The notes beneath the pieces were generated by a model that did no database searches, was not told the DNA's origin, and saw only the letters and a list, made by a program, of their open reading frames with translations. Both the position numbers and the translations under genes were made by a program. Shown here in pieces: positions 24,925 through 61,534 of a stretch of 64,000 nucleotides of DNA. The stretch covers positions 258,891-322,890 of the forward strand of contig CBDBQI010000006.1 in assembly GCA_965209165.1 (NCBI GenBank). The letters run 5' to 3'. Numbering within the stretch: position 1 is the first letter of the stretch; each line of letters opens with the position of its first letter. Origin of the DNA: Dehalococcoidia bacterium (lineage in GTDB: Bacteria > Chloroflexota > Dehalococcoidia > Lucifugimonadales > CAJWER01).

Positions 24925-25000
24925 TAGGCGACCATGAAGGCACGTGGCTCAGCGCGATCCGCTGAGTCGCGGGCAGCCGTGCCCTGGGAGATCTATCCCC

Positions 25001-27487
25001 ATGATGAACCAGGTACTTGACAGGCTAAGCTGGCTGGTAACGGTTCGCCCGTACCTCACTATAGTCGTCCTCGTCGTCGTCGCCATAGCCCTGGCCGCGG
25101 GGGCTTCGCTGCGGCTCCCGCCGACCGAGGGGGCCGATGTCGCATTCCTGCCGCCCGGGCACCCCGTCGCCGATGCGACTCGCCAGGTCAGCGAGCTCTT
25201 CAGCGATTCGGGCGACATCCGCGTCGCAACCCTCATCTTCCGGGGCGAGGCGCTTACACCAGGCGGCCTTTCCCAGATGTCCTCGCTGATCGGCGACATC
25301 GCCGGCGACCCGGGCGTCGGCGGGCTCCTGGCTCCCGCCAACCCCATCGTCGCGCCGGCTCCCATCATCGGCGCCGCGTTGCAGGTGGACGACTTCGAGT
25401 CCGTCACCCAGGAGCAGATCGACTCCCTACGCAGCGTGCCGGAGGTCCAGGGAGCCCTCTCGGCCATGACGGGGACCGACAAGGACGGCTCGCCGGTCGC
25501 AATAGCCAACATCCGGCTGACCGATACGGGCGACGAGAGGACCGAGAACGCCGAACGGAGGGTCAGCGAGCTCGCCGCCGCGAGTGACGGTCCGCTGCAC
25601 GTGAGCAGCCTGTCCCCGGTGATCGTCGAGGACGAATACAAGCAGGCCACGGAGCAGGGAATGGCGCCGCTGATAGGGCTGGCCCTGCTGCTGATCGTGG
25701 TGCTGCTCCTGCTCTTCACCCGCGCCATCTCCGACATGCTGCTCACCCTGACGGGCCTGATCCTGTCTATCGCCGGCGTTGTCGGGGCGGAGGGCTGGCT
25801 CGGGCCGAACGGGCTGGGCCTGATAGGCCCTCCAAGCTCGCTCACAGCAATGGTGCCCGTCATCCTGATCAGCCTCACGGTGGACTACGCAATCCAGACC
25901 GTCTCCCACTACCGCGAGCAGCGTGTCGAGGGCCTGGCGGTTGCGGCTGCGGTGCGGACAGGGTTGAGACACGTCACCATTCCCTTGACGCTGGCCGCCG
26001 TCACGACGATCGTCAGCCTGCTGGCGACCCTGTTCTCGCCAATCGGGGTGATTGGCGACTTCGGCATCGTCGCGGGGTTGGGGGTGGGCATCAGCCTGCT
26101 GGTGATGCTGACGCTGATACCGGCCGGCAGGATACTCATCGACCGGCGGCGCGAGGCGAGAGGCACCCTCAAGCCCGCCCGCCCCATCTCGAACGCACTC
26201 CCCGGCATTCCGAAGGCGGCGGAGCTGCTTGGGAGGTGGGTGACGCATAGACCTGCGCCCTACCTCGTCGCCGTGCTCCTGGTGACGGCCGGCCTCGGAT
26301 ATGCGGCCACGGGCCTGGAGTCGGAATTCAGCATCAAGGACATCCTGCCCCGGGGCGGGGGAGTGCTGGAGGACATGAACACCCTGGAAGCTGCCGTCGG
26401 CGGCTCCACGGAGATCGCCAGCCTGCTCATCGAGGCCGAAGTAACTGAGTCCAGGACTCTCCTGAACCTCCACGACCTCACTTCCGCCTTCGAGGACGAG
26501 CAGCGCCGCCCGCGCGGCGCAGCAGGACCAATGCAGGGGTCTTACGAGAGGCTCGTGTACGACTGGACCAACGACTCCGGAGAGCCCGGCGACAAGTATG
26601 ATCCTGAGCTGGAAGCGCTCTTCCGCGAAGCCTCGCCCGGGGTGGAGCTCGATCCGGCGCTGATGCAGCAGGTCGTCGACGAGCTCGTCGCAAGAGAGCC
26701 CGACCTGGCGCACTTCCTGGTCAACAATCCGGATGGCCTCGACACGATGCTTCTCCAGTTCCCGATCTTCCCGAACGATCCCGTTGGGACCAGGATGCTT
26801 CACGAGGACATCGAAGAGCTCTGGCTCGGAGACGATAGCGCCGTCACGGCGACTTCGGCCAGCATCGTCGCGGTCGCCGTCACCGATCAGATCACCGACG
26901 GGCAGACGGAGTCGATCAGCACCACCATCGCCATCGCCCTGGGAATCCTCGCCATCTTCTTCTGGGTGACGCTGCGCCAGCCCGCGCTGGGGATAGTCGC
27001 CGTCGGCCCAATCGTGCTGGTCCTCATATCCGTGCTGGGCACCATGGCGCTGCTGGGCATTCCCTACACGCTCGTCACCTCGATCATCACGGCCCTGTCG
27101 ATAGGCATCGGGGTGGACTACACCATCCACGTCATCCATCGCTACCGGGAAGAGTTCACCCGGCTTCGCAACCCGGAGAGGGCGGCGATCCAGACCCTCG
27201 CGACCACCGGCTCTGCGCTGCTCGGCTCGGCACTGACGACGGCGTTCGGGTTCGGAGTGCTGATAGCGTCGCCGCTGCTGGCGTCGGCCCAGTTCGGCAT
27301 CACGGCCACCATCACCATCGTCTACTCCCTGGCAGTCTCGATCCTGGTGGTGCTGCCCGCCATGGTCGTTTGGGGCGCGTACCAGAACATGCGGATGCGC
27401 TCGATGGTCACGCGTATGTGGGACGACCTGGACGTGGCCATCGAGGACATCAGCAAACGCCACCACGGGGACGCCGCGCCGTCGTAG
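25001..27487 (+). CDS. MMPL/RND-superfamily (HAE3-like) lipid exporter, paralog 1
   Basis: Two repeats of a large extracytoplasmic loop followed by a TM bundle (LTVDYAIQTVSHYRE and IGVDYTIHVIHRYREE). Alignable end to end with 41583..44048. Start trimmed to ATG 25001. Confidence 0.85.
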   Translation: MMNQVLDRLSWLVTVRPYLTIVVLVVVAIALAAGASLRLPPTEGADVAFLPPGHPVADATRQVSELFSDSGDIRVATLIFRGEALTPGGLSQMSSLIGDIAGDPGVGGLLAPANPIVAPAPIIGAALQVDDFESVTQEQIDSLRSVPEVQGALSAMTGTDKDGSPVAIANIRLTDTGDERTENAERRVSELAAASDGPLHVSSLSPVIVEDEYKQATEQGMAPLIGLALLLIVVLLLLFTRAISDMLLTLTGLILSIAGVVGAEGWLGPNGLGLIGPPSSLTAMVPVILISLTVDYAIQTVSHYREQRVEGLAVAAAVRTGLRHVTIPLTLAAVTTIVSLLATLFSPIGVIGDFGIVAGLGVGISLLVMLTLIPAGRILIDRRREARGTLKPARPISNALPGIPKAAELLGRWVTHRPAPYLVAVLLVTAGLGYAATGLESEFSIKDILPRGGGVLEDMNTLEAAVGGSTEIASLLIEAEVTESRTLLNLHDLTSAFEDEQRRPRGAAGPMQGSYERLVYDWTNDSGEPGDKYDPELEALFREASPGVELDPALMQQVVDELVAREPDLAHFLVNNPDGLDTMLLQFPIFPNDPVGTRMLHEDIEELWLGDDSAVTATSASIVAVAVTDQITDGQTESISTTIAIALGILAIFFWVTLRQPALGIVAVGPIVLVLISVLGTMALLGIPYTLVTSIITALSIGIGVDYTIHVIHRYREEFTRLRNPERAAIQTLATTGSALLGSALTTAFGFGVLIASPLLASAQFGITATITIVYSLAVSILVVLPAMVVWGAYQNMRMRSMVTRMWDDLDVAIEDISKRHHGDAAPS

Positions 27488-27497
27488 GGAGGGGTGA

Positions 27498-28535
27498 ATG
27501 CAGCTTCACAGGCTAGCCAAGGGGCTCAGGGCCGCGTACCGTGACTCGGACGCCCGCAGCCGCGTGAGAGACCTCGACGGGTGGACGGACAGGGCGCAAG
27601 TGGACGGCGCCGGCCCGGGGAGCTACGACCACACCGAGACCGTCAGGGAATACTACGATCTCTGCAGCGAGTTCATGGTGTTCGGTTGGGGCGAGTCCCT
27701 CCACTTTGCGCCCCTGTCGCCCCGGGAGAGCCTGGAGGAATCCAAGGTCCGGCACCAGCGGCTGATGATTGACAAGCTGGAGCTGCGCGAGGGCATGACA
27801 GTGATCGACGTCGGTTGCGGGATCGGCGGCCCGATGCGCCGCGTTGCCCGGGAGGCTGGTGTCAGGGTGGTAGGGGTCAATAGCAGTGAAGTCCAGCTGG
27901 CGAAGGCGAAGGCGTTGAACGCCGAGGCGGGGCTCGACCACATGATCGACTACCTCGCGTGCAGCTTCATGGACATGGGCGCCGTCGCGGACGGCACATT
28001 CGACCGGGGATACGCGATCGAATCGACGTGCCACGCGCCGGACAAGGCGGGAGCGTTCGCCGAGATCTACCGCGTGCTGAAACCCGGAGCCCTCTTCTGG
28101 GGCCAAGAAATGTGCATGACGGACAAGTTCGATCCCGGCGACGACCGCCACCAGGCGACGAAAGAGGACCTGATGCACGGCATCGCCCTCAAGGATATCG
28201 CGACTATGGGCGAGGTGGACCGGGCGCTCGAAGCGGCGGGATTCCAGGTCATCGAGGTGAAGGACCGGGCCGTCGACGAGAACAGTCCGGTCACGCCGTG
28301 GTATCAGCCCATGGAGGCCCGGGGCAACACTCTGGGCAACGCCCTGCGCAGGACGCCGCTGGGCCGCAGGGCGCTCAAGGGGACATCAGGGCTGGCCGAA
28401 GCTCTGGGGATACTCCCGAAGGGGTCCGCGGATGTAATCGGGCTGATGGACCGTACCGCCAGGGCCTATGTCGCAGGCGGCAGGGCCGGAATCTTCACCC
28501 CGCTGTACTGTTTCTTGGCCCTCAAGCCCCGCTAG
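27498..28535 (+). CDS. ERG6/SMT-like sterol C-methyltransferase homologue 1
   Basis: YYDLCSEFMVFGWGESLHFAP, VIDVGCGIGGP (SAM motif I), YAIESTCHAPD, EIYRVLKPG and the C-terminal GIFTPLYCFLALKP tail are colinear with the yeast ERG6 motifs YYNLVTDFYEYGWGSSFHF / LDVGCGVGGP / YAIEATCHAP / LFTPMMLFVARKP. The start lies 10 nt after the exporter stop, with a GGGAGGGG RBS. Confidence 0.8.
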   Translation: MQLHRLAKGLRAAYRDSDARSRVRDLDGWTDRAQVDGAGPGSYDHTETVREYYDLCSEFMVFGWGESLHFAPLSPRESLEESKVRHQRLMIDKLELREGMTVIDVGCGIGGPMRRVAREAGVRVVGVNSSEVQLAKAKALNAEAGLDHMIDYLACSFMDMGAVADGTFDRGYAIESTCHAPDKAGAFAEIYRVLKPGALFWGQEMCMTDKFDPGDDRHQATKEDLMHGIALKDIATMGEVDRALEAAGFQVIEVKDRAVDENSPVTPWYQPMEARGNTLGNALRRTPLGRRALKGTSGLAEALGILPKGSADVIGLMDRTARAYVAGGRAGIFTPLYCFLALKPR

Positions 28536-28571: not shown

Positions 28572-30596
28572 CTAGACGTTAATCTCGCGCCTCTGTTCGG
28601 CGATGTGGAACTTCAGCTTCTTGCTCGGCTTCATCGAGGGAAGCGGGTTGAACTTGAGCTTGTAGTTCGCCGGCGACACTTCGAGCGTGAAGTGGTGCGC
28701 GACCATCAGCAGGTTGACGGCAAGCTGGAGCTCCATCCACCGGGAGCCCAGACACGTGTGCGGGCCCAGCCCGTACGGTGCATATCCTGGACTGCGGTGT
28801 TCGTTGCGTGGAGGCAGGTAGCGGTCGATATCGAATTTGTAGGGCTCAGGGAAGACGTCCTCCATGAAGTGAGCCGCTGTCTGGGCAATGTAGATCCGCG
28901 ATCCCACAGGCAGCTCGTAGTTCTCTACCACGCACGAATTCATCACGTTTCGGATAGACACTGGGACGATCGGGTACATGCGCAGGCATTCCATGAGGAA
29001 GCGATGGGTCACGTCTATCGCGGGCGGAGCGAAGTCCCCACTGGCCGGGTCGCCGTTGTCGAACAGGGCGTCGGCTTCACTCCGGATACTGTCGTAAAGG
29101 TCCGGCTGTGACGCCATCGCGTACAACGCAAAGCTGAAGGCGTCGCCAAGGTACACGCTGGCGATCAACGCCGCTGCGAGCTGGAAACGCAGTGTCGTCT
29201 CCGGCACGAACTGTGGATCGCTTGCGTGCAGGCTCAGCCAGTCGTCCGCAAGGCTCCGCGGAGCATCTTCCCGCTGCGCTGATGTATGGACGCTCTGGAC
29301 CCGTTGCAGCAGCGTATCCACGGCCTTCGCCTTGCGTTTCATGCCCGGGGTGTTAAGCATGAACTTAGGCAGGACCTTCACGATGTGGACGAGGAGTGCT
29401 CGTTCCTTGTACTTCGCCAGGTCGTCAAAGATGTCCTGGGAGTCAACGCTGACAAAAAGCGGCGAGAGCTGCGAGTTGACCATCTGCCGGCTCATGCTCG
29501 TTGCAGAGAGGGTGTCTCCAACCGCCCACCCCGCCATGTGCCCCCGACCGCAGCTGTAGAGACTGTTCAGCTGCCCTTCCAGTCTATGGCGGGAATACGC
29601 CGCCGACATGGCCTTTCGAAGCCGGAAGTGGTCGGCGCCATCCATGGAGGGCATGACTCCAGACGCGCCGTAGACCTGCTCGAAGTCACTAAAATAGTCC
29701 TTGGTCCTCAGGTATATTCGACCTCGCCGATGGGCCCAGTGATTCGTTTCCGGGCCGGCCAGCACAATCATGGGTTTGGCAAACGGCGGGCGCAGCTCGA
29801 ACACCGGGCCATGCTCTTTTGCGATGTCCGCAAAGAACGCGGCAACGTTACCGTCGCGGACATGTGGATTGAAGAGCGCCTGGCGCAGTGGGACGACCGG
29901 TATCTTTTTCGTGAGTGAAGACTGCCGAAGCAGCGGGCCCGCGAGGTTGTGGGAGACAGCCGCGGCGATCGACCGTCCGATCAGGTCCATCCTGCAGATG
30001 AACTGGATGCGCTCCTCCGCCGCGTCGTCCAGGTTGAATATGAACCGGAAGACGTCGCACGTATTGATGAGACAGATGATGATCACATCTCGCGGGTCGG
30101 GAATCTCGTTGTTGAAGATCACCTGGCCGATTCGCGTCTTTACAAACTGGACCGCGTCGCCCTCCGGAGAGCTGAACATGTCCGCATGCCGTGCGGAATG
30201 CGTCACCGTCCAGTAATCGCCGGAGTGGTGCTCCAGGACATCCATCTCGACCAGCCTATCCAGGGTAGAGTCGATTATCGACTCGGCGCGTGGAGCAATC
30301 CGCTCGACCCAGTACTGGGCGTTCCGCTGCACCGGCTCGGAAGCGATCTCCTCCAGGATGGGGTCCAGGACGGGGTTGCCGGTCTCCGTCTTGTCCAGGA
30401 GGTACAGGGACTCCATGTCCGTGTCGATTCGAGACAGCAGCGAGAGCTCCGCGAGCACGGAGCCGGCCACGGCGCAGTTCAGGTCCCAGCCGGGCACCTG
30501 GTGAAAGTAGCCGCTCTCCTCGTTGAGCAGCATCAGTATCAGCTCTGAGGGCAGAGTTAGCTGCTGGGTTGCCACACCGTCTTCTGTGAGAGTCAT
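28572..30596 (-). CDS. Cytochrome P450 with N-terminal GPP34/GOLPH3-like domain
   Basis: C-terminal heme loop YGLGPHTCLGSRW. The N-terminal about 220 aa (LPSELILMLLNEESGYF...LNCAVAGSVLAELSLLSRI...DPILEEI...PDPRDVIIICLINTCDV) follow the GPP34-family pattern. Confidence 0.8.
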   Translation of the reverse strand: MTLTEDGVATQQLTLPSELILMLLNEESGYFHQVPGWDLNCAVAGSVLAELSLLSRIDTDMESLYLLDKTETGNPVLDPILEEIASEPVQRNAQYWVERIAPRAESIIDSTLDRLVEMDVLEHHSGDYWTVTHSARHADMFSSPEGDAVQFVKTRIGQVIFNNEIPDPRDVIIICLINTCDVFRFIFNLDDAAEERIQFICRMDLIGRSIAAAVSHNLAGPLLRQSSLTKKIPVVPLRQALFNPHVRDGNVAAFFADIAKEHGPVFELRPPFAKPMIVLAGPETNHWAHRRGRIYLRTKDYFSDFEQVYGASGVMPSMDGADHFRLRKAMSAAYSRHRLEGQLNSLYSCGRGHMAGWAVGDTLSATSMSRQMVNSQLSPLFVSVDSQDIFDDLAKYKERALLVHIVKVLPKFMLNTPGMKRKAKAVDTLLQRVQSVHTSAQREDAPRSLADDWLSLHASDPQFVPETTLRFQLAAALIASVYLGDAFSFALYAMASQPDLYDSIRSEADALFDNGDPASGDFAPPAIDVTHRFLMECLRMYPIVPVSIRNVMNSCVVENYELPVGSRIYIAQTAAHFMEDVFPEPYKFDIDRYLPPRNEHRSPGYAPYGLGPHTCLGSRWMELQLAVNLLMVAHHFTLEVSPANYKLKFNPLPSMKPSKKLKFHIAEQRREINV

Positions 30597-30785: not shown

Positions 30786-31838
30786 ATGGCAACCCGGCGA
30801 CGAGTGCCCACGGAAGATGCGGTACTTTCCCCGTTTCCCGAGGGCTGGTACTTCGTAGCGACCCGCGAGGCAGTGCTGAAGGAGAAGCTCGTCCAGAAGA
30901 CCTGGATGGGCGAAAATGTCGTGGTCTGGTGCGACGACAACGGGCGCGTCTGCGTCGCCGAAGCCGTCTGCCCGCACCTTGGGGCCGACCTGGGGCCAGC
31001 AGCCGGGGGATGCATCCGCGGCGGGCGGCTGCTCTGCCCCTTCCACGGCTACGAATTCGACGCCACCGGCCAGTGCGTCGCCACTCCCTTCGCAGAGCCG
31101 CCCAGGACCGCTAAGCTGCGCGTCTTCGAAACCCAGGAGATATTCGGCCTCATCTTCGCCTGGTGGGGCACCGGGGGACGCGAGCCCCAGTGGAGCCTGC
31201 CCGTGGGAACGCTGGATGCGGAGGGCTGGAGCGGCTTCGAGATCAGCACCCTCCGCTTCCCGGGCCACCCACAGGAGACGACCGAGAATTCGGTGGACCT
31301 GGCCCACCTGCGCTACGTCCACGGCTACGACAATGTCGAGCCCGTCGAGGAGGCTTTGGTGGACGGCCACCTACTCCAGGCCAGTTTCGACTTCAAGAGA
31401 AAGAGGACTATCGCCGGCGCCGTCAATCTCATCTTCGACGTGTCGGCCAGCGCCAGCATCTACGGGCTGGGCTACTCGTTCGTGGATATCCGCGAGAAGT
31501 CCATTGGATTGAACATGCGCCTCTGGGTGCTGGCGACGCCGATCGACGGCACCCTCATAGACCTGACGCTGGTCTCGCAGGTGCGGGAGATCCGCAGCCC
31601 GAAGCGCCTGATAGTGGGCCTGGGGTTCCTCCCCGTCGGACTGCGCGCGCCCCTCATCAACAAGTTCATGGCGTCCCAGCAGAAGGACGACGTCGAGCAG
31701 GACGTCATCATCTGGAGCAACAAGCAGTACGTTTCGCGCCCGCGCCTCTGCCGCTCAGACGGCAGGATCATGCCATTCAGGTACTGCTGCGCCCAGTTCT
31801 ACCCCGACCCTGGCGACTCCAACGGCTCCACTCCCTAA
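30786..31838 (+). CDS. Rieske [2Fe-2S] non-haem iron oxygenase, KshA / cholesterol-7-desaturase-like
   Basis: CPHLG..(17)..CPFHG Rieske ligands, ENSVDLAHLRYVH mononuclear-iron motif, and C-terminal DVEQDVIIWSNKQY...DGRIMPFR tail. Confidence 0.8.
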   Translation: MATRRRVPTEDAVLSPFPEGWYFVATREAVLKEKLVQKTWMGENVVVWCDDNGRVCVAEAVCPHLGADLGPAAGGCIRGGRLLCPFHGYEFDATGQCVATPFAEPPRTAKLRVFETQEIFGLIFAWWGTGGREPQWSLPVGTLDAEGWSGFEISTLRFPGHPQETTENSVDLAHLRYVHGYDNVEPVEEALVDGHLLQASFDFKRKRTIAGAVNLIFDVSASASIYGLGYSFVDIREKSIGLNMRLWVLATPIDGTLIDLTLVSQVREIRSPKRLIVGLGFLPVGLRAPLINKFMASQQKDDVEQDVIIWSNKQYVSRPRLCRSDGRIMPFRYCCAQFYPDPGDSNGSTP

Positions 31839-31989: not shown

Positions 31990-33348
31990 CTATGCCTTCC
32001 TGAACCGCGACCCGTACAGGATCCCCCCGTAGTAGTTGAACCACCCCTTCGCCTCGACATCGTCGAACGGGTAGTCCGCGCCCAGCTGCCTTGCGGCGGC
32101 GAGCCCGGTCACGAAGCAAGTCTCCTGGCTGTTCACCAGCGTGTGGGCGCCGCAGTGCCACGACCGACGCCTGCCTTGGATGAACCGGAATAGGTAGACG
32201 AGCAGCGCCACGTGCCGCACGTCATGGACGACGTGCTGGAACGTTCGCCTCCCGATGACCTTCCCCTCGTCGATGGGGTTGACCGCGTTGTAGGTCACAA
32301 GGCAGGGCTTGTCCGACCCGCCGGCCCACGGCTGCTGGTTGTGCATGATGTACGTGATCTCGTAGTTATCCGGCTTCGCGCCGTACTGCTCGATGTAGTT
32401 GCTCCGCGTCCCCAGCGGCTTCGCCTCGTTGTCAGGCAGCACTGAAGCGTCCGAGTGGACGACCGCCCGGCCGTGGAGCGAGTCGTCGTAGCGTATCGAC
32501 GACAGTATGTAGCGCTCGAGAAACGTGGGCTTGTCGAGAATCGCCAGCGTCTGGTTCGCGTTGCACGCGAATACCACCTCGTCGAACGTCTCCCTTACGC
32601 CCTCCTCGTCCTCGACCACCACGCGCTCGGCCTCCCTGTACACCTTCCGGACGGGCCGTCCCAGGTAGATCTTGTCCCGGAAGTCCACCGACAGGTTCTC
32701 GTAGATGCGCCGCGTTCCCCGGTCCCACGTGTGCAGGGGAGTGGCGGACTCGATGTCGAAGAACTCCAGGTACCTCGCGAACAGCGCCGCGGGCATGGAG
32801 AACACGTCCGTCGCCATCAGGAAGTTGACGAACATCGGCTTCAGTACCTTGTACCTGAAGTCGTCGGAGAACCCGCCCAGCCTCAGGACCGTCCCCATGC
32901 TGACGTAGTTGAACGGGTTGAGCGCGTTCAGCAGCTTCGACCGGGAGCGGGTCAGCCAGCCGATCCGGTGGAGCCGGCCCAGGACCCGCTGGAACTTCTC
33001 GATCTCGGGCTGGAGCTGCTCCCTTAGGTCGGAGTCGAAGTCGTGGGCGTAGAGTTGGCCGCCGTACCTCACGCTGTAGCTGAACCTGGTGTCGACCAGC
33101 TCGATGCCGAACCGCTCCATCAGCAGCAGGATGTGGTGGTACACGGACGGAATGCAGGCCGTGACGGAAATGTCGAAGGGGATCGAGCTACCGTCGTCCT
33201 GCGGCATGTCTGCCGTAACCGCGTTCCCGCCGATCTGAGCCTCGGCCTCGAACAGCCGGAAGTCGAACCGGTCCGCGTGGTGGCTCAGCGCCCACGCGGC
33301 GCCCAGCCCCGAAACGCCCCCGCCGACAATGGCAATCCGCCGCACCAC
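31990..33348 (-). CDS. FAD/NAD(P)-binding amine-oxidase-fold oxidoreductase
   Basis: GTG start with an AAGGAGAGG RBS. The N-terminal Rossmann motif is IAIVGGGVSGLGAAWAL. Overall it resembles the flavoproteins often found next to lipid methyltransferase or cyclopropane synthase genes. Confidence 0.7.
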   Translation of the reverse strand: MVRRIAIVGGGVSGLGAAWALSHHADRFDFRLFEAEAQIGGNAVTADMPQDDGSSIPFDISVTACIPSVYHHILLLMERFGIELVDTRFSYSVRYGGQLYAHDFDSDLREQLQPEIEKFQRVLGRLHRIGWLTRSRSKLLNALNPFNYVSMGTVLRLGGFSDDFRYKVLKPMFVNFLMATDVFSMPAALFARYLEFFDIESATPLHTWDRGTRRIYENLSVDFRDKIYLGRPVRKVYREAERVVVEDEEGVRETFDEVVFACNANQTLAILDKPTFLERYILSSIRYDDSLHGRAVVHSDASVLPDNEAKPLGTRSNYIEQYGAKPDNYEITYIMHNQQPWAGGSDKPCLVTYNAVNPIDEGKVIGRRTFQHVVHDVRHVALLVYLFRFIQGRRRSWHCGAHTLVNSQETCFVTGLAAARQLGADYPFDDVEAKGWFNYYGGILYGSRFRKA

Positions 33349-35399: not shown

Positions 35400-35404
35400 A
35401 CCGC

Positions 35405-45006: not shown

Positions 45007-45019
45007 GATCCTCCTGCAG

Positions 45020-45040: not shown

Positions 45041-45179
45041 TCCAGGTTCCTCAGGCAGCGGCCGCAAAGGCGCTGGACCTGGCCGCTGCCACGCATTTGA
45101 CCGGCCCCGGTCGATGGGATAACGTTGCGTCCATCTACCGGCGCACTTGTCCTCCAAGCGGGACAGCAGGACCTACTGG

Positions 45180-47039: not shown

Positions 47040-47164
47040 GCCTACTTCTATGCCGCCCCTTATTGGGCTTGACCCTTCCTTCCGCTTTCAGGCTAGCACC
47101 CTCGGGTTGGCGAGTCAAAATCCGGAAGAGTCCGAGACTTGGCACCTCTCTATGGGGGAGTAAC

Positions 47165-47209
47165 TTGACATGCTATATCTCATCACGCTATAGTGTTACG
47201 CGATATAGC
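47165..47209 (+). promoter_or_regulatory. Candidate padR promoter (TTGACA-N18-TATAGT) bracketed by 8-bp inverted repeat GCTATATC/GATATAGC
   Basis: The -35 is at 47165-47170 and the -10 at 47189-47194. Inverted-repeat arms lie at 47172-47179 and 47202-47209. All read directly. Confidence 0.45.
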
Positions 47210-47254
47210 CAGCGCAGCGATCGAAACTGTCTACTGGAAGGAGGCCGGCTGACA

Positions 47255-47620
47255 TTGACGAAGCTAATTCCCCTGGACCTGCTTCCCCTCCCCGTGGCCC
47301 AGCTGCATATCCTGCTGGCCCTGGCCACAGGGGACAAGCACGGATACGCGATCATGAGCGAGGTCGAGGTGCTTACCGAGGGGGCGGTCACGATGGGACC
47401 CGGCACGTTGTACGGGACCGTCAAGAAGATGCTGAAGGCCAGCCTTGTCGAGGAGAGCGACGACCGCCCTGACCCCGAGCTGGACGATCAACGCCGCCGG
47501 TACTACCGGATAACCGGCCTGGGCAAACGGGTACTCGATGCCGAGGTCGACCGGATGGAGCAGCTTGCGCGCACCGCCAGATTGATACGGGAGACTGTCC
47601 CGCGAGGGCCCAGCGCCTGA
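47255..47620 (+). CDS. PadR-family transcriptional regulator
   Basis: TTG start with a GGAAGGAGG RBS. Winged-helix blocks LHILLALATGDKHGYAIMSEV...GPGTLYGTVKKM...YYRITGLGKRVL. Confidence 0.8.
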   Translation: MTKLIPLDLLPLPVAQLHILLALATGDKHGYAIMSEVEVLTEGAVTMGPGTLYGTVKKMLKASLVEESDDRPDPELDDQRRRYYRITGLGKRVLDAEVDRMEQLARTARLIRETVPRGPSA

Positions 47621-47621
47621 C

Positions 47622-47822
47622 ATGCTCTCGGAGCGAGTCTACCGCTGGCTGCTCTTCGCCTATCCGCGGGAGCACCGGCAGGAATACGGCGAGCCGATGG
47701 TCCAGCTGTTCCGCGACCGGATGCGCCGTGATGGCGACGGCTTCCTGGCATTGGCGGTCTGGCTTCACATGGTGTTCGACCTCATTGGGTCGGCATTCGA
47801 AGAACACAGGGAAGGAGTTGTA
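47622..47822 (+). CDS. PadR-associated 'permease-prefix'-like peptide, open in frame into purC
   Basis: VYRWLLFAYPREHRQEYGEPMVQLFRD resembles the N-terminal prefix of PadR-linked membrane proteins. There is no stop codon before the purC ATG at 47823 in the same frame. Confidence 0.3.
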
Positions 47823-48704
47823 ATGAGCAAGCTAGGACTTATGGAGTCTCCTCTGCCCAACCTCGTCTACAGGGGGAAGGTCAGGGACACGCACGAGATG
47901 GACGACAAGCTGTTCCTAATGGTGGCGACGGACCGCATATCCGCCTTCGACGTCGTGCTGCCCACGGCGGTGCCCGACAAGGGCGCGGTGCTGTGCCAGA
48001 TTTCCTACTTCTGGTTCGACCAGACCGAGGACATCGTGCCCAACCACTTCGTCGCCCGGGCTACCGACAGGCCAGAGCTGGACATTCCGGCCAATCTAGC
48101 CCGCCAGGCGATGGTCGTCAGGCGCGCTGAGCGCATCGACGTCGAGTGCGTCATTCGCGGGTACATCACGGGTTCGGCGTGGTCCGAGTACAAGAAGAGC
48201 GGCACCGTCCAGGGGATGCCGATGCCTGCCGGCCTCCAGGAGGGGGACAAGTTCCCGGAGCCGCTGTTCACTCCCACCACCAAGGCCGAGGTGGGCCACG
48301 ACGAGAACATGACCATGGAAGAGGTCGAGGCGATGGTGGGGGTGGACGAGGCCAAGCGGCTTGCCGAGACCACGGCCGCCGTCTACAACAAGGCCCACGA
48401 CATCGCCCTCGCCAAGGGCATCGTCATAGCCGACACGAAGATGGAGTTCGGCTATATCGACGGCGAGCTGACGCTCATCGACGAGCTGCTGACCCCGGAC
48501 TCGAGCCGGTTCTGGGACGCCGAGGGCTACGCGCCCGGCAAGTCCCAGCCCAACTTCGACAAGCAGTACGTCAGGGACTGGCTCGACGACCAGGGCTGGG
48601 ACCACGAGCCCCCGGCTCCTGAGCTGCCCGACGACGTGGTCGAGAAGACCCGGCTGCGCTACATCGAGGCGTACGAGCGGTTGACCGGGCAAAGCCTCCA
48701 GTAG
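47823..48704 (+). CDS. purC: Phosphoribosylaminoimidazole-succinocarboxamide (SAICAR) synthase
   Basis: LVYRGKVRDTHEM..LFLMVATDRISAFDVVLP, ADTKMEFG, DELLTPDSSRFW. A GGGAAGGAG RBS precedes the ATG at 47823. Confidence 0.9.
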   Translation: MSKLGLMESPLPNLVYRGKVRDTHEMDDKLFLMVATDRISAFDVVLPTAVPDKGAVLCQISYFWFDQTEDIVPNHFVARATDRPELDIPANLARQAMVVRRAERIDVECVIRGYITGSAWSEYKKSGTVQGMPMPAGLQEGDKFPEPLFTPTTKAEVGHDENMTMEEVEAMVGVDEAKRLAETTAAVYNKAHDIALAKGIVIADTKMEFGYIDGELTLIDELLTPDSSRFWDAEGYAPGKSQPNFDKQYVRDWLDDQGWDHEPPAPELPDDVVEKTRLRYIEAYERLTGQSLQ

Positions 48705-48763: not shown

Positions 48764-48867
48764 GTTGTCGGGCGGCCATTTAAGAGGAACGACGGGGTTG
48801 TGCAAGAGCTCCGGGTGGGTCAGGGCCTCCTGGGGACTCCGCATTGTGGTGTAAGCTCAGGAGCGCC

Positions 48868-49604
48868 ATGACTGAACAACCCCAGTTGTATCGTGACTTG
48901 GCGGGCTGGTTCCACCTGCTCACCGCGCCCCACGAGTACCGTGACGAGGCCAGGTACTACGGCGATCGCATCGTCGAGGCCGCGTCCGGCCAGGTCCGCA
49001 CCGTGCTCGAGATGGGCTCCGGCGGCGGGAACAATGCATCGCACATGAAGCGGCGCTTCACAATGACCCTGTCCGACCTCTCGGCAGAGATGCTCGCGCT
49101 CAGCCGGCGGATCAACCCCGAGCTCGAGCACGTCCAGGGCGACATGCGCTCCCTGAGAATCCCGGGCGCACGGTTCGACGCCGTGTTCGTGCACGACGCA
49201 GCCTCTTACCTCGCCTCCGAAGACGACGTGCGCGCCATGGCAGCCACCGCCGCTTTCCACTGCCGGCCCGGCGGGGCCGCCGTAGTCGTCCCCGACCACG
49301 TCCGAGAGAACTTCGCCCCGCCGTACGTCGAGCGCGGCGGCCACGACTCCCCCGACGGGCACGGCATGCGCTACCTCATGTGGACCACCGACCCCGACCC
49401 CGCCGACTCTACCTACATTGCCGACTTCGCCTACCTGCTGCGAGACGCGATGGGACTGTCCGCGCCGAGCACGACCGGCACGTCTTCGGCATTTTCCCCG
49501 AGGCGCTGTGGACCGGCGCGCTCCAGGACGCGGGTTTCGACGTAACGGTGCAGACCGACCCCTGGGGCGCACGAGTCTTCTCAGGCACAAACCCCGCCGC
49601 CTAA
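48868..49604 (+). pseudogene. Class I SAM-dependent methyltransferase with an apparent frameshift near 49441-49448
   Basis: Motif I is VLEMGSGGG. The reading frame with family-like sequence switches from ...ADFAYLLR (frame of 48844..49545) to RDGTVRAEHDRHVFGIFPEALWTGALQDAGF... (frame of 49380..49604). Confidence 0.6.
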
Positions 49605-49682
49605 GAAGACGCGTTCCCGTGGCCGGCATCGTCCTATCGAGGTTGGCTGACCTCATGCACGTCCCTTGCCGGCAGCGCTCTA

Positions 49683-49711
49683 TTGACCGGCTTTCCGCCT
49701 ATGGACATAAT
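49683..49711 (+). promoter_or_regulatory. Candidate promoter TTGACC-N17-CATAAT upstream of the ERG4/ERG24-like gene
   Basis: Hexamers and 17-nt spacing read directly. 32 nt separate the -10 from ATG 49744, with an AAGGGG RBS in between. Confidence 0.45.
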
Positions 49712-49743
49712 GACCCCATCTCTGGAGCAAGGGGCATTCAGTC

Positions 49744-50889
49744 ATGATCGAATGGCTTGGCATCGAACACCTCTTCGAGCTCTCCGGGACCGAGGCGATC
49801 GCGGGGTTCCTCACCCCGCTGGCGATCTTCGCCGTCTTCTTCGTGGCGCAGCTCATACTGCCGGCGAGGCGGGTTACCGGCTACGTCATCAACCCGGAGA
49901 CGGGCGAGCCCCGCAACTACCGGCTGAACGGCATCCTGGTGTTCGTCATCGCCATCGTCGTGTGGGCATTCGTCTTGGAGCGTATCGGAATACCCCGCGA
50001 CTGGTTCTACCGTTCCTCCATCTATGCGGTGGCCGGCGGGACGGTCTTCTGCTTCATCTTCTCGCTCTGGGCGCTCCTCAGCCAGCCGGAGGGGCACATA
50101 AAGAACCCCTTCCTCGCCTTCTGGGAAGGGCGTTCATTGGAGCTGCCCTTCTTCAACGAGCGCTTCGACGTCAAGATGTACCTGTACGTCGTCGGCGGGA
50201 CGATGTTGTCGCTCAACGCCCTGTCAGGCGCCGCGTACCACTACGAGCTCTTTCCCGAAAACCCCAACCCGGGCGTCTTTCTGTTCGCGGGGTTCCTCAC
50301 GTTCTACGTGTTCGATTACTTCATCTTCGAGCGCGTCCAGCTATACACCTACGACCTGATCCACGAGCACCTCGGCTTCAAACTGATCTGGGGAGGCCTC
50401 GTCATCTACGGATGGCTCTACATACTCCCGCTGTGGGGCATGGCCGTCCACCCGGACCCCGGCTTCTCGACGCCGCTGGCTTATGTCTGGCTCATCGTAA
50501 CGGCCACGCTGTTCATGGTCGGGTGGGGCATCTCGCGCGGCGCGAACATGCAGAAGTACACCTTCAAGCGCTGGCCCGACCGCAAGTTCCTCGGACTCAT
50601 CGAGCCCGAGTACATCCAGGCCGGCGAGCGCAAGATCCTGTGCAGCGGCCTGTGGGGTTACGCCCGTCACTTCAACTACCTCGGCGAGGGGTTCGCCTCC
50701 TTCTCGATGGGGCTGGCATTCGGCCACTTCGGCAATCCCTGGGCATGGACCTACTTCGTCTTCATCGTATCGCTGTTCACCTGGCGCCAGACGGTCGACG
50801 AGAAGAACTGTGCCGAGAAGTACGGGGCGGAGAAGTGGGCCGAGTACCGGAAGCGGGTGAAGTACCGGATTCTTCCCGGCATCTATTGA
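49744..50889 (+). CDS. ERG4/ERG24-family sterol reductase homologue
   Basis: About 8 TM segments. C-terminal signature LWGYARHFNYLGEGF ... DEKNCAEKYGAEKWAEYRKRVKYRILPGIY matches the family hallmarks (RHxNYxGE; KYGxxWxxYxxxVxYRIxPxIY). Confidence 0.85.
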   Translation: MIEWLGIEHLFELSGTEAIAGFLTPLAIFAVFFVAQLILPARRVTGYVINPETGEPRNYRLNGILVFVIAIVVWAFVLERIGIPRDWFYRSSIYAVAGGTVFCFIFSLWALLSQPEGHIKNPFLAFWEGRSLELPFFNERFDVKMYLYVVGGTMLSLNALSGAAYHYELFPENPNPGVFLFAGFLTFYVFDYFIFERVQLYTYDLIHEHLGFKLIWGGLVIYGWLYILPLWGMAVHPDPGFSTPLAYVWLIVTATLFMVGWGISRGANMQKYTFKRWPDRKFLGLIEPEYIQAGERKILCSGLWGYARHFNYLGEGFASFSMGLAFGHFGNPWAWTYFVFIVSLFTWRQTVDEKNCAEKYGAEKWAEYRKRVKYRILPGIY

Positions 50890-55188: not shown

Positions 55189-55721
55189 GTCTGGTAGAGT
55201 GGGACGAGCGGGAGCCCATGGGCAAGGCCTACTTCCGAATGCCAACCAAGCGATAGAGCCGCAAGGCCCTCATCGAGGCTCCGGCAGGTAGCGGGCCAGA
55301 CGACGTGCCGGTTGCTGCCCGTGACCTGCTCCACAAGGACCCGTCGCTGTGGTCGGCATAGTTTCGACTTCTCCATAGTAATCCTCAGACGCCATCCCGA
55401 AATCCACGATTGCCACCCAGGGGCAATATCGGTAAACTGGAGTTGTGGGGCCTCCCAAGGTCCCCAATCCACCTGCGAGGTCAGAGGCGGGATGTAGATT
55501 CCCCATGCAGTGGCGGGATGTTTGCCATCCTCGACGAGGGGATGCAGGACAAGGCTGAACGGTCACGCATGAGGCCTTCGAGGCTGTTCCTGTATCTGAC
55601 GGGAGGCAAGGGACTGAGAGTTGCAATTGAACAAAAGATAGAACAAAATAACCTTGCGCTGTTCTAAAGGCCGGTGATAAGTAGATGTCCTGCCTGACGA
55701 GCCGGGAGGATACATCCGAAT

Positions 55722-60170: not shown

Positions 60171-61196
60171 CTAGTCCGGCTTGCGCGCGTGGATGAAGTA
60201 CATCGGCGTGAAGATGCCGAGCCGGCCCGCCCCCGCCATGGCTGACGCGCAGAGATTCAGGGTTCCCGACACGCGGACCGTTCCCTGAGGCACGATGCGG
60301 AGTGCCTCTAGCACCTTCAGCGAGCTGTGGGTCACCCAGCGTCCGATAGTGGAGCTGCGGAAGGCGGCGAGGGAGAGTCCCAACCCCACGAGGGGCTGGT
60401 ACCACGGAATCGACGGGCCGGACTGCACTGCGAGGTCACGCGTCTCCAGCACCTCGAATCCCACCGTTCGAAGCGCGTCATCGACCGTCGGCGCATCGTC
60501 GATTATGAGCAGCCCGCCACCCAGCTGAATGTCGGCCTTGAGCTTGACGTGGACGGGGTCGCTCGCGTCGAAGCGGTCGGTCACGCAGTATTCGTAGGCG
60601 CCGAAGTGCGCGCCCGGCTTCAAGAGGCGAAAGACCTCGCTGTAGATGCTGACCTTGTCCGGCGCGCAGCAGCTTGCCTCGATCGAGTAGGCTGCGTCGA
60701 ACGATTCGTCCGAGGCATCCACGTCCAGGAAGTCGCATTGCAGGAAATCGGCCAGGTGAGCGAGGCCCGCCTCTCCGGTCAGTTTCCGGGCGCGTTCGAG
60801 CTGATAGCCATTGCTGTTTATGCCGACGACCCTGGCGCCCGAAGTGCGGGCAATCTCAATCAAAGGCCCGCCAACGCCGCAGCCAATGTCGGCCACTACC
60901 ATCTCCGGTCCGAGGCCAAGCGCCTGCGACATGAATCGCTCATGGCGTGCCAGCGACTCCTTGAAGCTCTCCCCCGGCACACGGGGCGCAAAGTGAAAGG
61001 ATCTGCCCCAGCCATACTCGAATAAGTCGGTGACCAGGTCGTAGTAGAGATTGTTGACCTTCTCGTGCTCGCCCTCTTGCCCTACGGGGGCGCCGCCCTC
61101 GGCCGCCCTGAAGCGGTCCTCGTATTCGCTGACGGCCGGATCGACACCGGAGGTGCCGGGTTGCTCCTTCAGGATTTCGGAGAGCTTGACAGGCAT
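60171..61196 (-). CDS. ERG6/SMT-like sterol C-methyltransferase homologue 2
   Basis: NNLYYDLVTDLFEYGWGRSFHFAPR, VADIGCGVGGP, YSIEASCCAPD, EVFRLLKPG, IPWYQPL and the C-terminal GIFTPMYFIHARKP are very close to the ERG6 motif set. Trimmed to the ATG at 61194-61196. Confidence 0.8.
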   Translation of the reverse strand: MPVKLSEILKEQPGTSGVDPAVSEYEDRFRAAEGGAPVGQEGEHEKVNNLYYDLVTDLFEYGWGRSFHFAPRVPGESFKESLARHERFMSQALGLGPEMVVADIGCGVGGPLIEIARTSGARVVGINSNGYQLERARKLTGEAGLAHLADFLQCDFLDVDASDESFDAAYSIEASCCAPDKVSIYSEVFRLLKPGAHFGAYEYCVTDRFDASDPVHVKLKADIQLGGGLLIIDDAPTVDDALRTVGFEVLETRDLAVQSGPSIPWYQPLVGLGLSLAAFRSSTIGRWVTHSSLKVLEALRIVPQGTVRVSGTLNLCASAMAGAGRLGIFTPMYFIHARKPD

Positions 61197-61534
61197 CGAG
61201 GCGCTCCCAACCTGCTCCTGGCCGGCACGGACCCTCGCGCCTGAGGGCCTCCGTATGCGAACTCGCCGCCTGCCGGCCAGTCGATACGGCATCATACCAC
61301 GTGGCACTCCAGTGCCTTGAGGGCGGCGTCCAGAAACACTTGCTGGCCAGCACTGAGGGACAGCCTTCGGGCCTCGCGGACAGGAACGAGCTCTGAGCCA
61401 AACACATAGCCATCCGCCCCCTTAAGGTCCGGGCGGTGTGCGCCTGGGCCACCGGCGTAAACGACCTGAATGAAGTCTGGGTGTCGCCGAGTCCCGCCCC
61501 TTCCAAAGTCTGGAGGCTCGGGACCAGCCCGCCT

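What the first reader, a model, noticed from the sequence alone, without database searches (positions are those of the whole stretch)
49683..50889. ERG4/ERG24-family sterol reductase homologue with its own promoter
A polytopic 381-aa protein ends in LWGYARHFNYLGEGF...DEKNCAEKYGAEKWAEYRKRVKYRILPGIY. This is the diagnostic C-terminal signature of sterol C-14, C-7 and C-24(28) reductases. A TTGACC-N17-CATAAT promoter-like element and an AAGGGG RBS lie directly upstream. This family is overwhelmingly eukaryotic, and only sporadic bacterial members are known (for example in intracellular pathogens and some sterol producers). Inference: together with the two SMT homologues in this window, it would complete the SMT -> delta24(28)-reductase sequence that yields saturated 24-alkyl sterol side chains. 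The gene sits 16 kb from the core cluster and 10 kb from the second SMT, so the pathway, if real, is dispersed rather than a single operon.
Basis: partly seen in the sequence, partly recalled or inferred. Interest (0 to 1): 0.7.

Follow-up and report, generated by a model that had tools for sequence, protein, structure and literature searches.

The report
Orphan-clade sterol reductase, mobile among sponge symbionts
This gene encodes a real membrane reductase of the sterol-reductase family, but it belongs to an uncharacterised branch, not the yeast ERG4 type, and near-identical copies with the same promoter occur in many unrelated uncultured bacteria, several from sponge metagenomes, so its link to side-chain-methylated "sponge biomarker" sterols can be tested but is not shown.

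Summary
ORF 49744-50889 (+, 381 aa) matches ERG4_ERG24 (PF01222, 131 bits). Its AlphaFold model (pLDDT 90.8) superposes on the bacterial delta14-sterol reductase 4QUV (TM 0.81). All NADPH-binding positions and the catalytic Tyr are kept; the catalytic Asp is Glu.

In a bootstrapped tree the protein is not an ERG4 orthologue (19-22% identity), nor a C-14 reductase or DHCR7. It falls in a 100%-supported orphan clade with unnamed proteins of choanoflagellates, chytrids, oomycetes and some bacteria.

It is not a sporadic bacterial member. 460 stretches in species-representative genomes encode relatives. The best 80 are 74-96% identical, in MAGs labelled as at least eight phyla, with dS of only 0.6-1.1.

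The TTGACC-N17-CATAAT promoter and RBS travel with the gene: 29 of 80 loci carry it at the same offset.

In 12 of 80 loci, in at least four arrangements, the gene lies within 10 kb of the same SSD-transporter/SMT/P450/Rieske/FAD-oxidase cluster seen in this window. From the SMT side the link is rare (1 of 67 loci).

One genome carries a canonical OSC-CYP51-C14-reductase cluster as well as this paralogue. The substrate is unknown. A side-chain olefin made by the SMTs is my leading guess, and it is unproven.

The parts
49683..49688 (+). -35 hexamer TTGACC
   Evidence: Found by the promoter scan. Invariant in L001-L004. The TTGACN-N16-18-NATAAT pattern lies 61-62 nt upstream of the ATG in 29 of 80 homologous loci, with TTGACC in 28 of them.
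49706..49711 (+). -10 hexamer CATAAT, 17-nt spacer after the -35
   Evidence: Among the 29 loci, CATAAT occurs 20 times, GATAAT 6, TATAAT 2 and AATAAT 1, almost always with a 17-nt spacer (two loci have 18).
49712..49743 (+). conserved 5' leader with the RBS AAGGGG (49729-49734), 9 nt before the ATG
   Evidence: The column consensus ..cgtcac..G.gg.aGGGG.attcGgTCATG holds across 80 loci. No consensus RNA structure was found and there is no Rfam family match.
49744..50889 (+). CDS of the 381-aa ERG4/ERG24-family reductase, orphan clade. Key codons: Tyr188 at 50305-50307, Asn311 at 50674-50676, Glu315 at 50686-50688, Arg348 at 50785-50787.
24944..27487 (+). MMPL/RND transporter with sterol-sensing-domain hits. 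It is part of the cluster that adjoins the reductase in other genomes.
27498..28535 (+). SMT homologue 1 (Sterol_MT_C 54 bits)
28572..30596 (-). GPP34-domain::cytochrome P450 fusion. It is not CYP51 proper: 62 bits to CYP51 structures.
   Evidence: It is the steady neighbour of SMT1-type genes in the metagenome loci.
30786..31838 (+). Rieske oxygenase, KshA-like. It is only 25% identical (E 5e-10) to the SdmA-position Rieske gene of the canonical cluster in L066.
31990..33348 (-). FAD amine-oxidase-family protein (LkcE-like)
60171..61307 (-). SMT homologue 2 (Sterol_MT_C 79 bits), 9.3 kb downstream. The interval holds IS1-like and IS21 transposase genes (54130-58079).

Best explanation
The gene encodes a functional NADPH-dependent membrane reductase of carbon-carbon double bonds, with the MaSR1 sterol-reductase fold. 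It belongs to an uncharacterised fourth branch of the ERG4/ERG24 family, not to the ERG4, C-14-reductase or DHCR7 branches. It is transcribed from its own sigma-70-type promoter. Gene, RBS and promoter have spread together by horizontal transfer among uncultured bacteria labelled as many phyla, several of them from sponge metagenomes, and are kept under strong purifying selection. Mechanism, inferred from the family: the conserved Tyr188, positioned with Glu315, protonates a sterol olefin, and hydride then passes from NADPH held by the C-terminal pocket (Arg265, Asn268, Lys271, Arg308, His309, Asn311, Tyr312, Arg348, Asp352, Lys359, Tyr360). The substrate is probably a sterol double bond other than delta14. 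My leading candidate is a side-chain olefin, delta24(28), delta24(25) or delta25(27), left by the symbionts' sterol methyltransferases. That would be ERG4-like work done by a non-ERG4 enzyme. Shown: family, fold, residue conservation, clade placement, promoter conservation, mobility and occasional clustering with SMT genes. Inferred: that it is active, that its substrate is a sterol, and which bond it reduces. My sub-confidences are: family, fold and cofactor about 0.9; sterol substrate about 0.7; side-chain bond about 0.35.
For: Family and fold: PF01222 at 131 bits. The best solved relative is 4QUV, the delta14-sterol reductase MaSR1, at E 7e-36. The AF2 model has pLDDT 90.8 and matches 4QUV at TM 0.81, E 2e-16 over 377 alignment columns.
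Active site: the positions equivalent to MaSR1 Tyr241, Asn359, Arg395, Lys319, Arg313, His357 and Asp399 are kept, and Asp363 is Glu (residue roles from PMC12489058 and PMC4951196). All these positions are invariant in 121 homologues.
Clade: the symbiont group has 100% bootstrap support. It nests with bacterial P0123 (98%) and P0131/P0146 (88%) inside an orphan clade. That clade is separated at 100% from C-14 reductases, ERG4 and DHCR7. Its named members are unannotated proteins of Monosiga, chytrids and Aphanomyces, plus EukProt entries from Corallochytrium and Phalansterium.
Not the C-14 reductase: locus L066 has a fused SMO::OSC gene, a true CYP51 (359 bits), a 368-aa C14R-type paralogue only 33% identical to the target, and a Rieske gene. 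The 379-aa type lies 2.9 kb away from that paralogue.
Mobility and selection: the best 80 relatives are 74-96% identical, in MAGs labelled as at least eight phyla, many on Mb-scale chromosomes. Flank GC ranges from 52 to 73% and the gene's GC3 tracks it (r 0.79). dS is 0.3-1.4 and dN/dS is 0.06-0.25. A purC-like gene in the same loci is 37-39% identical while the reductase is 81-85% identical.
Sterol link: 12 of 80 loci place the gene within 10 kb of the SSD-transporter/SMT/GPP34::P450/Rieske/FAD-oxidase set, in at least four different arrangements. Eight loci carry a tandem duplicate about 70% identical.
Sponge origin: all 67 SMT1-type loci found in the JGI metagenome collection belong to a few contig series. 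Four of those series (LXNI, LXNJ, JGIcombinedJ30088, Ga0209021) are documented sponge metagenomes. One of these loci, L086 from a Sarcotragus foetidus metagenome, also carries the reductase.
Against: No activity data exist for any member of this clade.
From the SMT side the association is weak: 1 of 67 SMT1-type loci has the 379-aa gene within reach. About 85% of reductase loci show no sterol gene nearby.
The window has no OSC, squalene monooxygenase, CYP51 or SdmB, so de novo sterol synthesis in this organism is not shown.
Orphan-clade relatives in a soil bacterium and a Myxococcota MAG sit in non-sterol contexts, translationally coupled to an SDR. Eukaryotic members occur fused to SDR-type domains. 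These point to a two-step ketone/olefin chemistry that the side-chain idea does not explain.
Most orphan-clade members outside the symbiont group have Phe in place of the catalytic Tyr.
The tree is neighbour-joining on 354 columns, not maximum likelihood, and deep nodes inside the orphan clade are unresolved.
Taxon labels of the MAGs are not fully reliable (L001 vs L004).
Confidence: 0.55

Rival explanations
1. It is a second, redundant delta14-sterol reductase, as automatic annotation calls it. It would complete C-14 demethylation of de novo made or imported sterols.
For: Sources name close homologues 'delta14-sterol reductase' (P0087). The best solved relative is MaSR1, a delta14 reductase. 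The catalytic Tyr is retained. In the tree the orphan clade lies nearer the C14R-type sequences than ERG4.
Against: It falls outside the C14R group with 95-100% bootstrap support. In L066 the position next to CYP51 and OSC is held by a different paralogue only 33% identical to the target. Published symbiont sterol clusters list one ERG24 next to CYP51 (PMC10070321 Supplementary Data 1; PMC9531527). No CYP51 is present in this window.
Confidence: 0.15
2. It reduces a ring double bond of host-derived sterols, either delta7 of 5,7-dienes or a delta4/delta5 bond on the way to stanols. It would work with a neighbouring short-chain dehydrogenase, so that symbionts remodel or detoxify sponge sterols rather than build their own.
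For: There is no de novo pathway in the window. Two SSD-type RND transporters are in the window. SDR genes lie within 50-200 bp in four symbiont lineages. An SDR is translationally coupled in Myxococcota and soil relatives and fused in eukaryotic members (P0519, P0210). The protein is 29% identical to DHCR7, against 19-22% to ERG4.
Against: The SDRs near the symbiont genes are not orthologous to each other or to the coupled ones, at about 30-40% identity. SDRs are so common that adjacency may be chance. The protein is not in the DHCR7 clade. Monosiga is reported to have a 'C7-reductase orthologue' while keeping delta7 sterols (PMC4967820). I could not check whether that gene is the orphan-clade one.
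Confidence: 0.2
3. Its substrate is not a sterol at all but another membrane isoprenoid or lipid olefin. The occasional proximity to SMT genes would then be incidental.
For: About 85% of loci have no sterol gene nearby. Relatives in free-living bacteria lie next to NRPS, radical-SAM, ABC-transporter and peptidase genes. The clade has no characterised member.
Against: Every characterised member of PF01222 acts on sterols (established knowledge). Finding the gene within 10 kb of the SMT cluster in 12 of 80 loci, in at least four arrangements and often in tandem copies, is far above what I estimate for chance (roughly 0.5% for a 20-kb window in a 3-6 Mb genome; my arithmetic, not a tool result). 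It also lies 2.9 kb from the C14R-type gene of a canonical sterol cluster in L066.
Confidence: 0.1
4. One reading: it is an ERG4-type delta24(28) reductase orthologue that completes an SMT pathway encoded in this window.
For: Two SMT homologues are in the window. The gene clusters with SMT genes in other genomes.
Against: It is 19-22% identical to ERG4s and lies in a different clade with 100% support. True ERG4-like bacterial genes exist elsewhere, at 34-41% identity to yeast ERG4 next to SMTs in lake and hot-spring metagenomes (PMC10070321 Supplementary Data 1). The function could still be analogous to ERG4.
Confidence: 0.05

Closest known systems
MaSR1, the delta14-sterol reductase of Methylotuvimicrobium alcaliphilum (PDB 4QUV)
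   Same: Same fold (TM 0.81, 30% identity over 377 alignment columns). Same NADPH-pocket residues and catalytic Tyr. Both are bacterial.
   Different: It lies in a different clade. Glu replaces the catalytic Asp363. The first ~75 positions of the Pfam profile are not matched, so the protein is shorter at the N-terminus. It is not next to CYP51. The substrate is unknown.
The ERG24-type reductase of the canonical sponge-symbiont sterol clusters (SMO::OSC-CYP51-ERG24-SdmA-SdmB; Kelly 2022 PMC9531527, Brown 2023 PMC10070321)
   Same: Same family and the same kind of host bacteria. Horizontal transfer and purifying selection were reported for that gene too. Both paralogues occur in one genome (L066).
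   Different: The two are only 33% identical. The gene studied here is usually solitary and has its own promoter. When clustered, it sits with a different gene set: SSD transporter, SMT, GPP34::P450, KshA-like Rieske and FAD oxidase. The papers I read (full text of Kelly 2022; text and Supplementary Data 1 of Brown 2023) do not distinguish the two paralogues.
Yeast ERG4, the sterol C-24(28) reductase
   Same: Same Pfam family. It is a possible functional analogue, since both would act after an SMT.
   Different: 19-22% identity and a separate clade. ERG4 differs at several NADPH-pocket positions that the target shares with C14R and DHCR7 (His for Asn359, Asp for Arg313, Lys for His357).
DHCR7, the 7-dehydrocholesterol reductase
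   Same: Same family, 29% identity, same pocket residues.
   Different: Separate clade. DHCR7 is about 100 residues longer at the N-terminus. There is no evidence for a 5,7-diene substrate.
Coxiella burnetii sterol reductase homologues (Gilk 2010, cited in PMC9666466). This comparison rests on my own knowledge and was not tested here.
   Same: They are bacterial ERG4/ERG24-family genes in host-associated bacteria that make no sterols, thought to modify host sterols.
   Different: I could not obtain their sequences, so their relation to this clade is unknown.

Membership tests
ERG4/ERG24 sterol reductase family (PF01222) | Profile HMM match above the curated threshold over most of the domain | tested here: met
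   131.1 bits against a cutoff of 27, covering profile positions 75-432 of 432
ERG4/ERG24 sterol reductase family (PF01222) | Polytopic helical fold of MaSR1 with a C-terminal NADPH pocket | tested here: met
   AF2 pLDDT 90.8. Foldseek to 4QUV gives TM 0.81, E 2e-16.
ERG4/ERG24 sterol reductase family (PF01222) | NADPH-contacting residues (MaSR1 Asn359, Arg395, Lys319, Arg313, His357, Tyr360, Asp399, Lys406, Tyr407) | tested here: met
   All are conserved and invariant in 121 homologues. The roles of Asn359 and Arg395 come from PMC4951196.
ERG4/ERG24 sterol reductase family (PF01222) | Proposed catalytic pair Tyr241/Asp363 (MaSR1 numbering) | tested here: inconclusive
   Tyr188 is kept. Asp is replaced by Glu315 in the whole symbiont group and in most of the orphan clade. 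Residue roles are from PMC12489058.
ERG4/ERG24 sterol reductase family (PF01222) | NADPH-dependent reduction of a sterol C=C | not testable with these tools
   Needs an enzyme assay.
ERG4 subfamily (delta24(28) reductase) | Groups with characterised ERG4 in a phylogeny | tested here: not met
   ERG4 forms its own 100% clade. The target is 19-22% identical and lies in another 100% clade.
C-14 reductase subfamily (ERG24/TM7SF2/LBR/FK/MaSR1) | Groups with characterised C-14 reductases | tested here: not met
   The known enzymes separate from the orphan clade at 95-100% bootstrap. Identity to C-14 reductases is 27-32%.
C-14 reductase subfamily (ERG24/TM7SF2/LBR/FK/MaSR1) | In bacteria, adjacency to CYP51 and OSC | tested here: not met
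   There is no CYP51 or OSC in the window. In L066 that position is held by another paralogue.
DHCR7 subfamily | Groups with DHCR7 | tested here: not met
   29% identity, outside the orphan clade. Only one reference was used, a composite of two primate database entries.
   DUF1295 scores 31 bits against 131 for PF01222. The SRD5A structures 7BW1 and 7C83 and the ICMT structure 5V7P give TM 0.31-0.38 and E of 0.09 or worse.

The most novel reading that the evidence does not exclude
The 379-381-aa clade is a new sterol-reductase specificity. It would saturate the side-chain olefins, delta24(28), delta24(25) or delta25(27), produced by symbiont sterol methyltransferases, and so supply the missing last step from the 24-isopropyl-dienols made in vitro by bacterial SMTs to saturated 24-isopropylcholesterol-type sterols. 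It would have been passed around the sponge microbiome as a self-contained cassette of promoter, RBS and gene. Bacteria would then be able to finish, not just start, the side chains used as the oldest 'animal' biomarker.
Probability: 0.3. Interest if true: 0.85.

Novelty: new variant of a known kind. Interest (0 to 1): 0.6.

Why it matters
24-isopropylcholestane in Cryogenian rocks is read as the oldest trace of animals (sponges). Brown et al. 2023 showed that bacterial symbiont SMTs can build the 24-isopropyl carbon skeleton, but their products keep a side-chain double bond. None of the papers I read names a bacterial side-chain reductase for 24-alkylated sterols. This gene is a concrete candidate that can be cloned. 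It is found in hundreds of species-representative genomes of uncultured bacteria, at least some of them sponge-associated. It is under strong purifying selection and sometimes lies beside the SMTs.

Whatever its substrate, it also marks a fourth, uncharacterised branch of the sterol-reductase family shared with choanoflagellates, chytrids and oomycetes. Assigning its activity would fill a gap in eukaryotic sterol pathways as well. Finally, a promoter that travels with its gene across bacteria labelled as different phyla is a clear example of how a host-associated community shares a trait.

Tried and rejected
1. NCBIfam gave no match.
2. An exact-sequence look-up of the window protein found nothing on record. 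The 95% relative P0001 sits on a 1.6-kb TARA scaffold, which is uninformative and shows that relatives are not documented only from sponges.
3. A regulatory RNA in the conserved leader is rejected. RNAalifold predicts no pairs in 23 leaders. Rfam gives only sub-threshold mir-137 noise upstream, at 49563-49619.
4. The cluster P450 as CYP51 is rejected: 62 bits to CYP51 structures, against 359 bits for the true CYP51 of L066.
5. The cluster Rieske protein as SdmA is rejected. It is 25% identical (E 5e-10) to the Rieske gene that occupies the SdmA position in L066, and it is closer to KshA.
6. A conserved SDR partner for the symbiont genes is rejected as orthology. The adjacent SDRs are 29-41% identical between lineages and about 30% identical to the coupled SDRs of the soil and Myxococcota relatives.
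7. A tight SMT-reductase operon is rejected: only 1 of 67 SMT1-type loci carries the reductase.
8. Searching papers for the OZ/OY chromosome accessions, to confirm their hosts, found nothing. The sponge origin of those particular MAGs therefore rests on my recollection of the sequencing projects, not on a tool result.
9. Naming orphan-clade members through cluster look-ups returned only 'hypothetical', 'DUF1295' or automatic 'delta14-sterol reductase' and 'Ste14' labels.
Full report
**Observation**

The window has 64% G+C. An ATG-initiated ORF at 49744..50889 (+) encodes 381 aa with the quoted C-terminus. Its third-position G+C of 0.90 matches that of its neighbours. It matches Pfam ERG4_ERG24 at 131 bits, E 6e-38, over profile positions 75-432 of 432. 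A weaker DUF1295 hit scores 31 bits. NCBIfam has no model for it. TTGACC (49683-49688), a 17-nt spacer, CATAAT (49706-49711), AAGGGG (49729-49734) and the ATG are as described. Within the window alone the promoter match is not better than chance: 1 site found against 0.5 expected.

**Family, fold and active site**

The closest solved protein is MaSR1 (4QUV), a bacterial delta14-sterol reductase, at E 7e-36. A eukaryotic delta14 reductase, 9L5R, comes second. An AlphaFold2 model built on 46 homologues has mean pLDDT 90.8 and pTM 0.90. It superposes on 4QUV at TM 0.81, E 2e-16. The steroid 5-alpha-reductases 7BW1 and 7C83 and the ICMT structure 5V7P reach only TM 0.31-0.38.

I mapped published MaSR1 residues onto the protein. 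The putative catalytic residues Tyr241 and Asp363 come from PMC12489058. The NADPH contacts Asn359 and Arg395 come from PMC4951196. The target has Tyr188, Glu315 (Asp to Glu), Asn311 and Arg348. The remaining pocket residues are also kept. All of these positions are invariant in 121 homologues, in which 109 of 381 positions never vary. I infer an active NADPH-dependent reductase.

**Which subfamily**

A search of 1.84 billion 50%-identity representatives collapsed the close homologues into one full-length cluster (P0121, plus fragment clusters). The next hits were at 49% (P0123) and 43% (P0131, from a Gammaproteobacteria MAG). After those came many proteins of 36-42% identity.

Named members of that last group are unannotated eukaryotic proteins:
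- Monosiga brevicollis A9VAA6;
- EukProt entries from Corallochytrium and Phalansterium;
- several chytrids;
- Aphanomyces species.

I then used only the database sequences that came back. P0300, S. cerevisiae Erg4p, was 99% identical to the bait. The DHCR7 reference is a composite of two primate entries, because each had a mispredicted part. The MaSR1 sequence (residues 76-427) was taken from the alignment printed.

I built a neighbour-joining tree on 354 columns with 100 bootstraps. It shows:
- the target plus 21 MAG homologues as a 100% clade;
- that clade joined to P0123 at 98% and to P0131/P0146 at 88%;
- all of these, with the eukaryotic unknowns, forming a clade separated at 100% from C-14 reductases (MaSR1, Apium FK, Naegleria, and the L066 C14R-type paralogue), ERG4 and DHCR7.

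Identity to the target is 19-22% for ERG4, 27-32% for C-14 reductases and 29% for DHCR7. The protein is therefore a member of the family but of none of its three characterised subfamilies. Glu at the Asp363 position marks the orphan clade. The catalytic Tyr is kept in the symbiont group but is Phe in 24 of 26 other orphan-clade sequences.

**Distribution and mobility**

In one genome per GTDB species, 460 stretches encode relatives. The best 80 are 74-96% identical over the full length. They lie in MAGs labelled Acidimicrobiales, Dehalococcoidia/SAR202/Chloroflexota, Bryobacterales, Gemmatimonadota, Nitrospirales, Latescibacterota, Binatia, Syntrophobacterales and Opitutales. Many sit on chromosomes of 2.4-6.8 Mb, so mis-binning cannot explain the pattern.

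Several lines point to horizontal transfer followed by long residence under purifying selection:
- The flanks share almost no genes.
- Flank G+C ranges from 52 to 73%, and the gene's GC3 follows it (r 0.79).
- Against the window copy, dS is 0.3-1.4 and dN/dS is 0.06-0.25. I would expect dS to be saturated if the genes had diverged vertically between phyla (my expectation, not tested).
- In three loci that also carry a purC-like gene, that gene is 37-39% identical to the window's copy while the reductase is 81-85% identical.

A caveat applies to the labels. L001 ('Acidimicrobiales') and L004 ('Dehalococcoidia') are both syntenic with the window at 84-96% protein identity. At least one of those labels must be wrong, so the count of phyla is approximate.

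Sponge origin is documented for part of the data. All 67 SMT1-type loci found in the JGI metagenome collection lie on a few contig series. The supplement of Brown et al. assigns JGIcombinedJ30088 and Ga0209021 to Aplysina aerophoba, LXNJ to Petrosia ficiformis and LXNI to Sarcotragus foetidus. L086 (LXNI) also carries the reductase. For the other MAG series (SB066x, RHO, IRC, COS and the OZ/OY chromosomes) sponge origin is my recollection, and I could not confirm it. One close relative is on a TARA scaffold.

**The promoter travels with the gene**

In L001-L004 the -35, the -10 and their spacing are invariant while the surrounding intergenic DNA is not alignable. Across 80 loci, 29 have TTGACN-N16-18-NATAAT at 61-62 nt upstream of the ATG. 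The whole set of loci, on both strands, holds only 38 such patterns. The leader and RBS are recognisably conserved in still more loci. There is no conserved RNA structure and no Rfam family match. The mobile unit appears to be promoter plus RBS plus gene.

**Context**

The window holds the following genes:
- an SSD-type MMPL transporter (24944-27487);
- SMT1 (27498-28535);
- a GPP34::P450 fusion (28572-30596), which is not CYP51;
- a KshA-like Rieske oxygenase (30786-31838), which is not SdmA-like;
- an LkcE-like FAD oxidase (31990-33348);
- a second SSD transporter (41583-44048);
- SMT2 (60171-61307).

It holds no OSC, squalene monooxygenase, CYP51 or SdmB.

In 12 of 80 reductase loci the same five-gene set lies within 10 kb, in at least four arrangements:
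- eight Chloroflexota loci with two tandem reductase copies about 70% identical to each other;
- L008;
- L035;
- the Gemmatimonadota loci L038 and L048.

A further locus, L001, has an SMT2-type gene 6.6 kb away. For a 20-kb window in a 3-6 Mb genome I estimate the chance expectation at roughly 0.5% (my arithmetic, not a tool result).

Seen from the SMT side, the steady partner is the P450 (roughly half of the 67 loci), followed by the Rieske gene. The reductase appears once. The link is therefore real but loose.

In L066 (Ca. Palauibacter) a canonical cluster is present. It comprises a fused SMO::OSC gene, a true CYP51 (359 bits), a 368-aa C14R-type reductase and a Rieske gene. The 379-aa paralogue lies 2.9 kb from the C14R-type gene, and the two are 33-35% identical. 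That canonical layout is the one published by Kelly 2022 and Brown 2023. The gene studied here is therefore the 'scattered' paralogue, which those papers do not separate from the canonical one.

**Function**

Chemistry of the family (established knowledge; PMC12489058): an acid protonates an olefin, and NADPH then delivers hydride to the resulting carbocation. The delta14 role is taken by another paralogue wherever a canonical cluster is seen. Bacterial SMTs leave delta24(28), delta25(27) or delta24(25) olefins (PMC10070321). Each of these would give a tertiary cation on protonation, so a side-chain reductase is chemically plausible and fits the clustering. I give this about 0.35.

Other evidence points elsewhere. 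Orphan-clade genes in a Myxococcota MAG and in farmland soil are translationally coupled to an SDR. Eukaryotic members are fused to SDR-type domains (P0519, P0210). Non-orthologous SDRs adjoin the gene in four symbiont lineages. This suggests a dehydrogenase/reductase pair acting on the sterol ring, for example in stanol formation, or on another lipid.

Najle et al. remark that Monosiga has a 'C7-reductase orthologue' although its sterols keep delta7. If that gene is the orphan-clade one, which I could not verify, a delta7 role is unlikely.

**Verdict**

The gene is real, almost certainly functional, and correctly assigned to ERG4/ERG24. It is not an ERG4 orthologue and not a rare bacterial oddity. 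It represents an uncharacterised branch of the family that has spread as a promoter-bearing cassette among uncultured bacteria, several of them documented sponge associates.

I rate it a new variant of a known kind, with interest 0.6. It is a concrete candidate for the unassigned reductase step in bacterial 24-alkyl sterol synthesis, but its substrate remains unknown.

Noticed in passing
window 28572-30596 (-): A GPP34 (GOLPH3-like) domain is fused to a divergent cytochrome P450. This fusion, not the reductase, is the steady neighbour of SMT1-type genes, appearing in roughly half of the 67 metagenome loci.
   Followed up: partly
L049, L052, L054, L059, L060, L061, L063, L079 (about 8730-11140 in most): Two tandem copies of the 379-aa reductase, about 70% identical to each other, follow the SSD-transporter/SMT/P450/Rieske/FAD-oxidase cluster in Chloroflexota MAGs. 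This suggests two specificities.
   Followed up: partly
L066 1290-8878 and 10001-11140: A canonical sterol cluster (fused SMO::OSC, true CYP51, 368-aa C14R-type reductase, Rieske oxygenase) lies 2.9 kb from the 379-aa paralogue in a Ca. Palauibacter chromosome.
   Followed up: yes
L149 9174-11080; L152 9201-11080; proteins P0519, P0210: Orphan-clade reductases of a Myxococcota MAG and a farmland-soil contig overlap the stop codon of an upstream SDR. Eukaryotic members occur as SDR::reductase and reductase::NAD-epimerase-like fusions. This hints at a two-enzyme step.
   Followed up: partly
window 47063-48704; L005, L006, L012 about 7100-9700: A PadR regulator is followed by a ~67-aa segment that reads in frame into purC. 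PadR and that segment are 64-76% identical to copies lying next to the reductase in three Dehalococcoidia loci, while the whole following ORF, including the purC part, is only 37-39% identical. I have no explanation. PadR might regulate the reductase.
   Followed up: partly
L001 vs L004 (whole loci): Two MAGs labelled as different phyla (Acidimicrobiales and Dehalococcoidia) are both syntenic with the window at 84-96% protein identity. At least one public taxon label is wrong.
   Followed up: no
window 54130-58079: An IS1-like transposase gene and an IS21 pair (istA/istB) lie between the PLP-dependent decarboxylase and the S58 peptidase/SMT2 region. The syntenic relative L001 has only 6.6 kb between the reductase and SMT2, against 9.3 kb here. 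I did not search L001 for the IS genes.
   Followed up: partly
window 24944-27487 and 41583-44048: Two MMPL/RND transporters with sterol-sensing-domain and Patched hits. They may export or import sterols.
   Followed up: no
window 39415-40047, 40205-40729: Two adjacent genes for Yip1-domain membrane proteins. Yip1, like GPP34, is known to me mainly from eukaryotic Golgi trafficking proteins.
   Followed up: no
window 35124-35836: A Phd/YefM antitoxin and PIN toxin pair lies between the sterol-type cluster and the reductase.
   Followed up: no
window 44972-45066 (-): ARAGORN calls a 95-nt tRNA-Ser (TGA), but the Rfam gathering-threshold scan of the whole window reports no RNA family at all.
   Followed up: no
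window 48844-49545 (+): A class-I SAM methyltransferase without a sterol-MT C-terminal domain lies directly upstream of the reductase promoter. It is conserved at about 84% only in the syntenic relatives L001 and L004.
   Followed up: no
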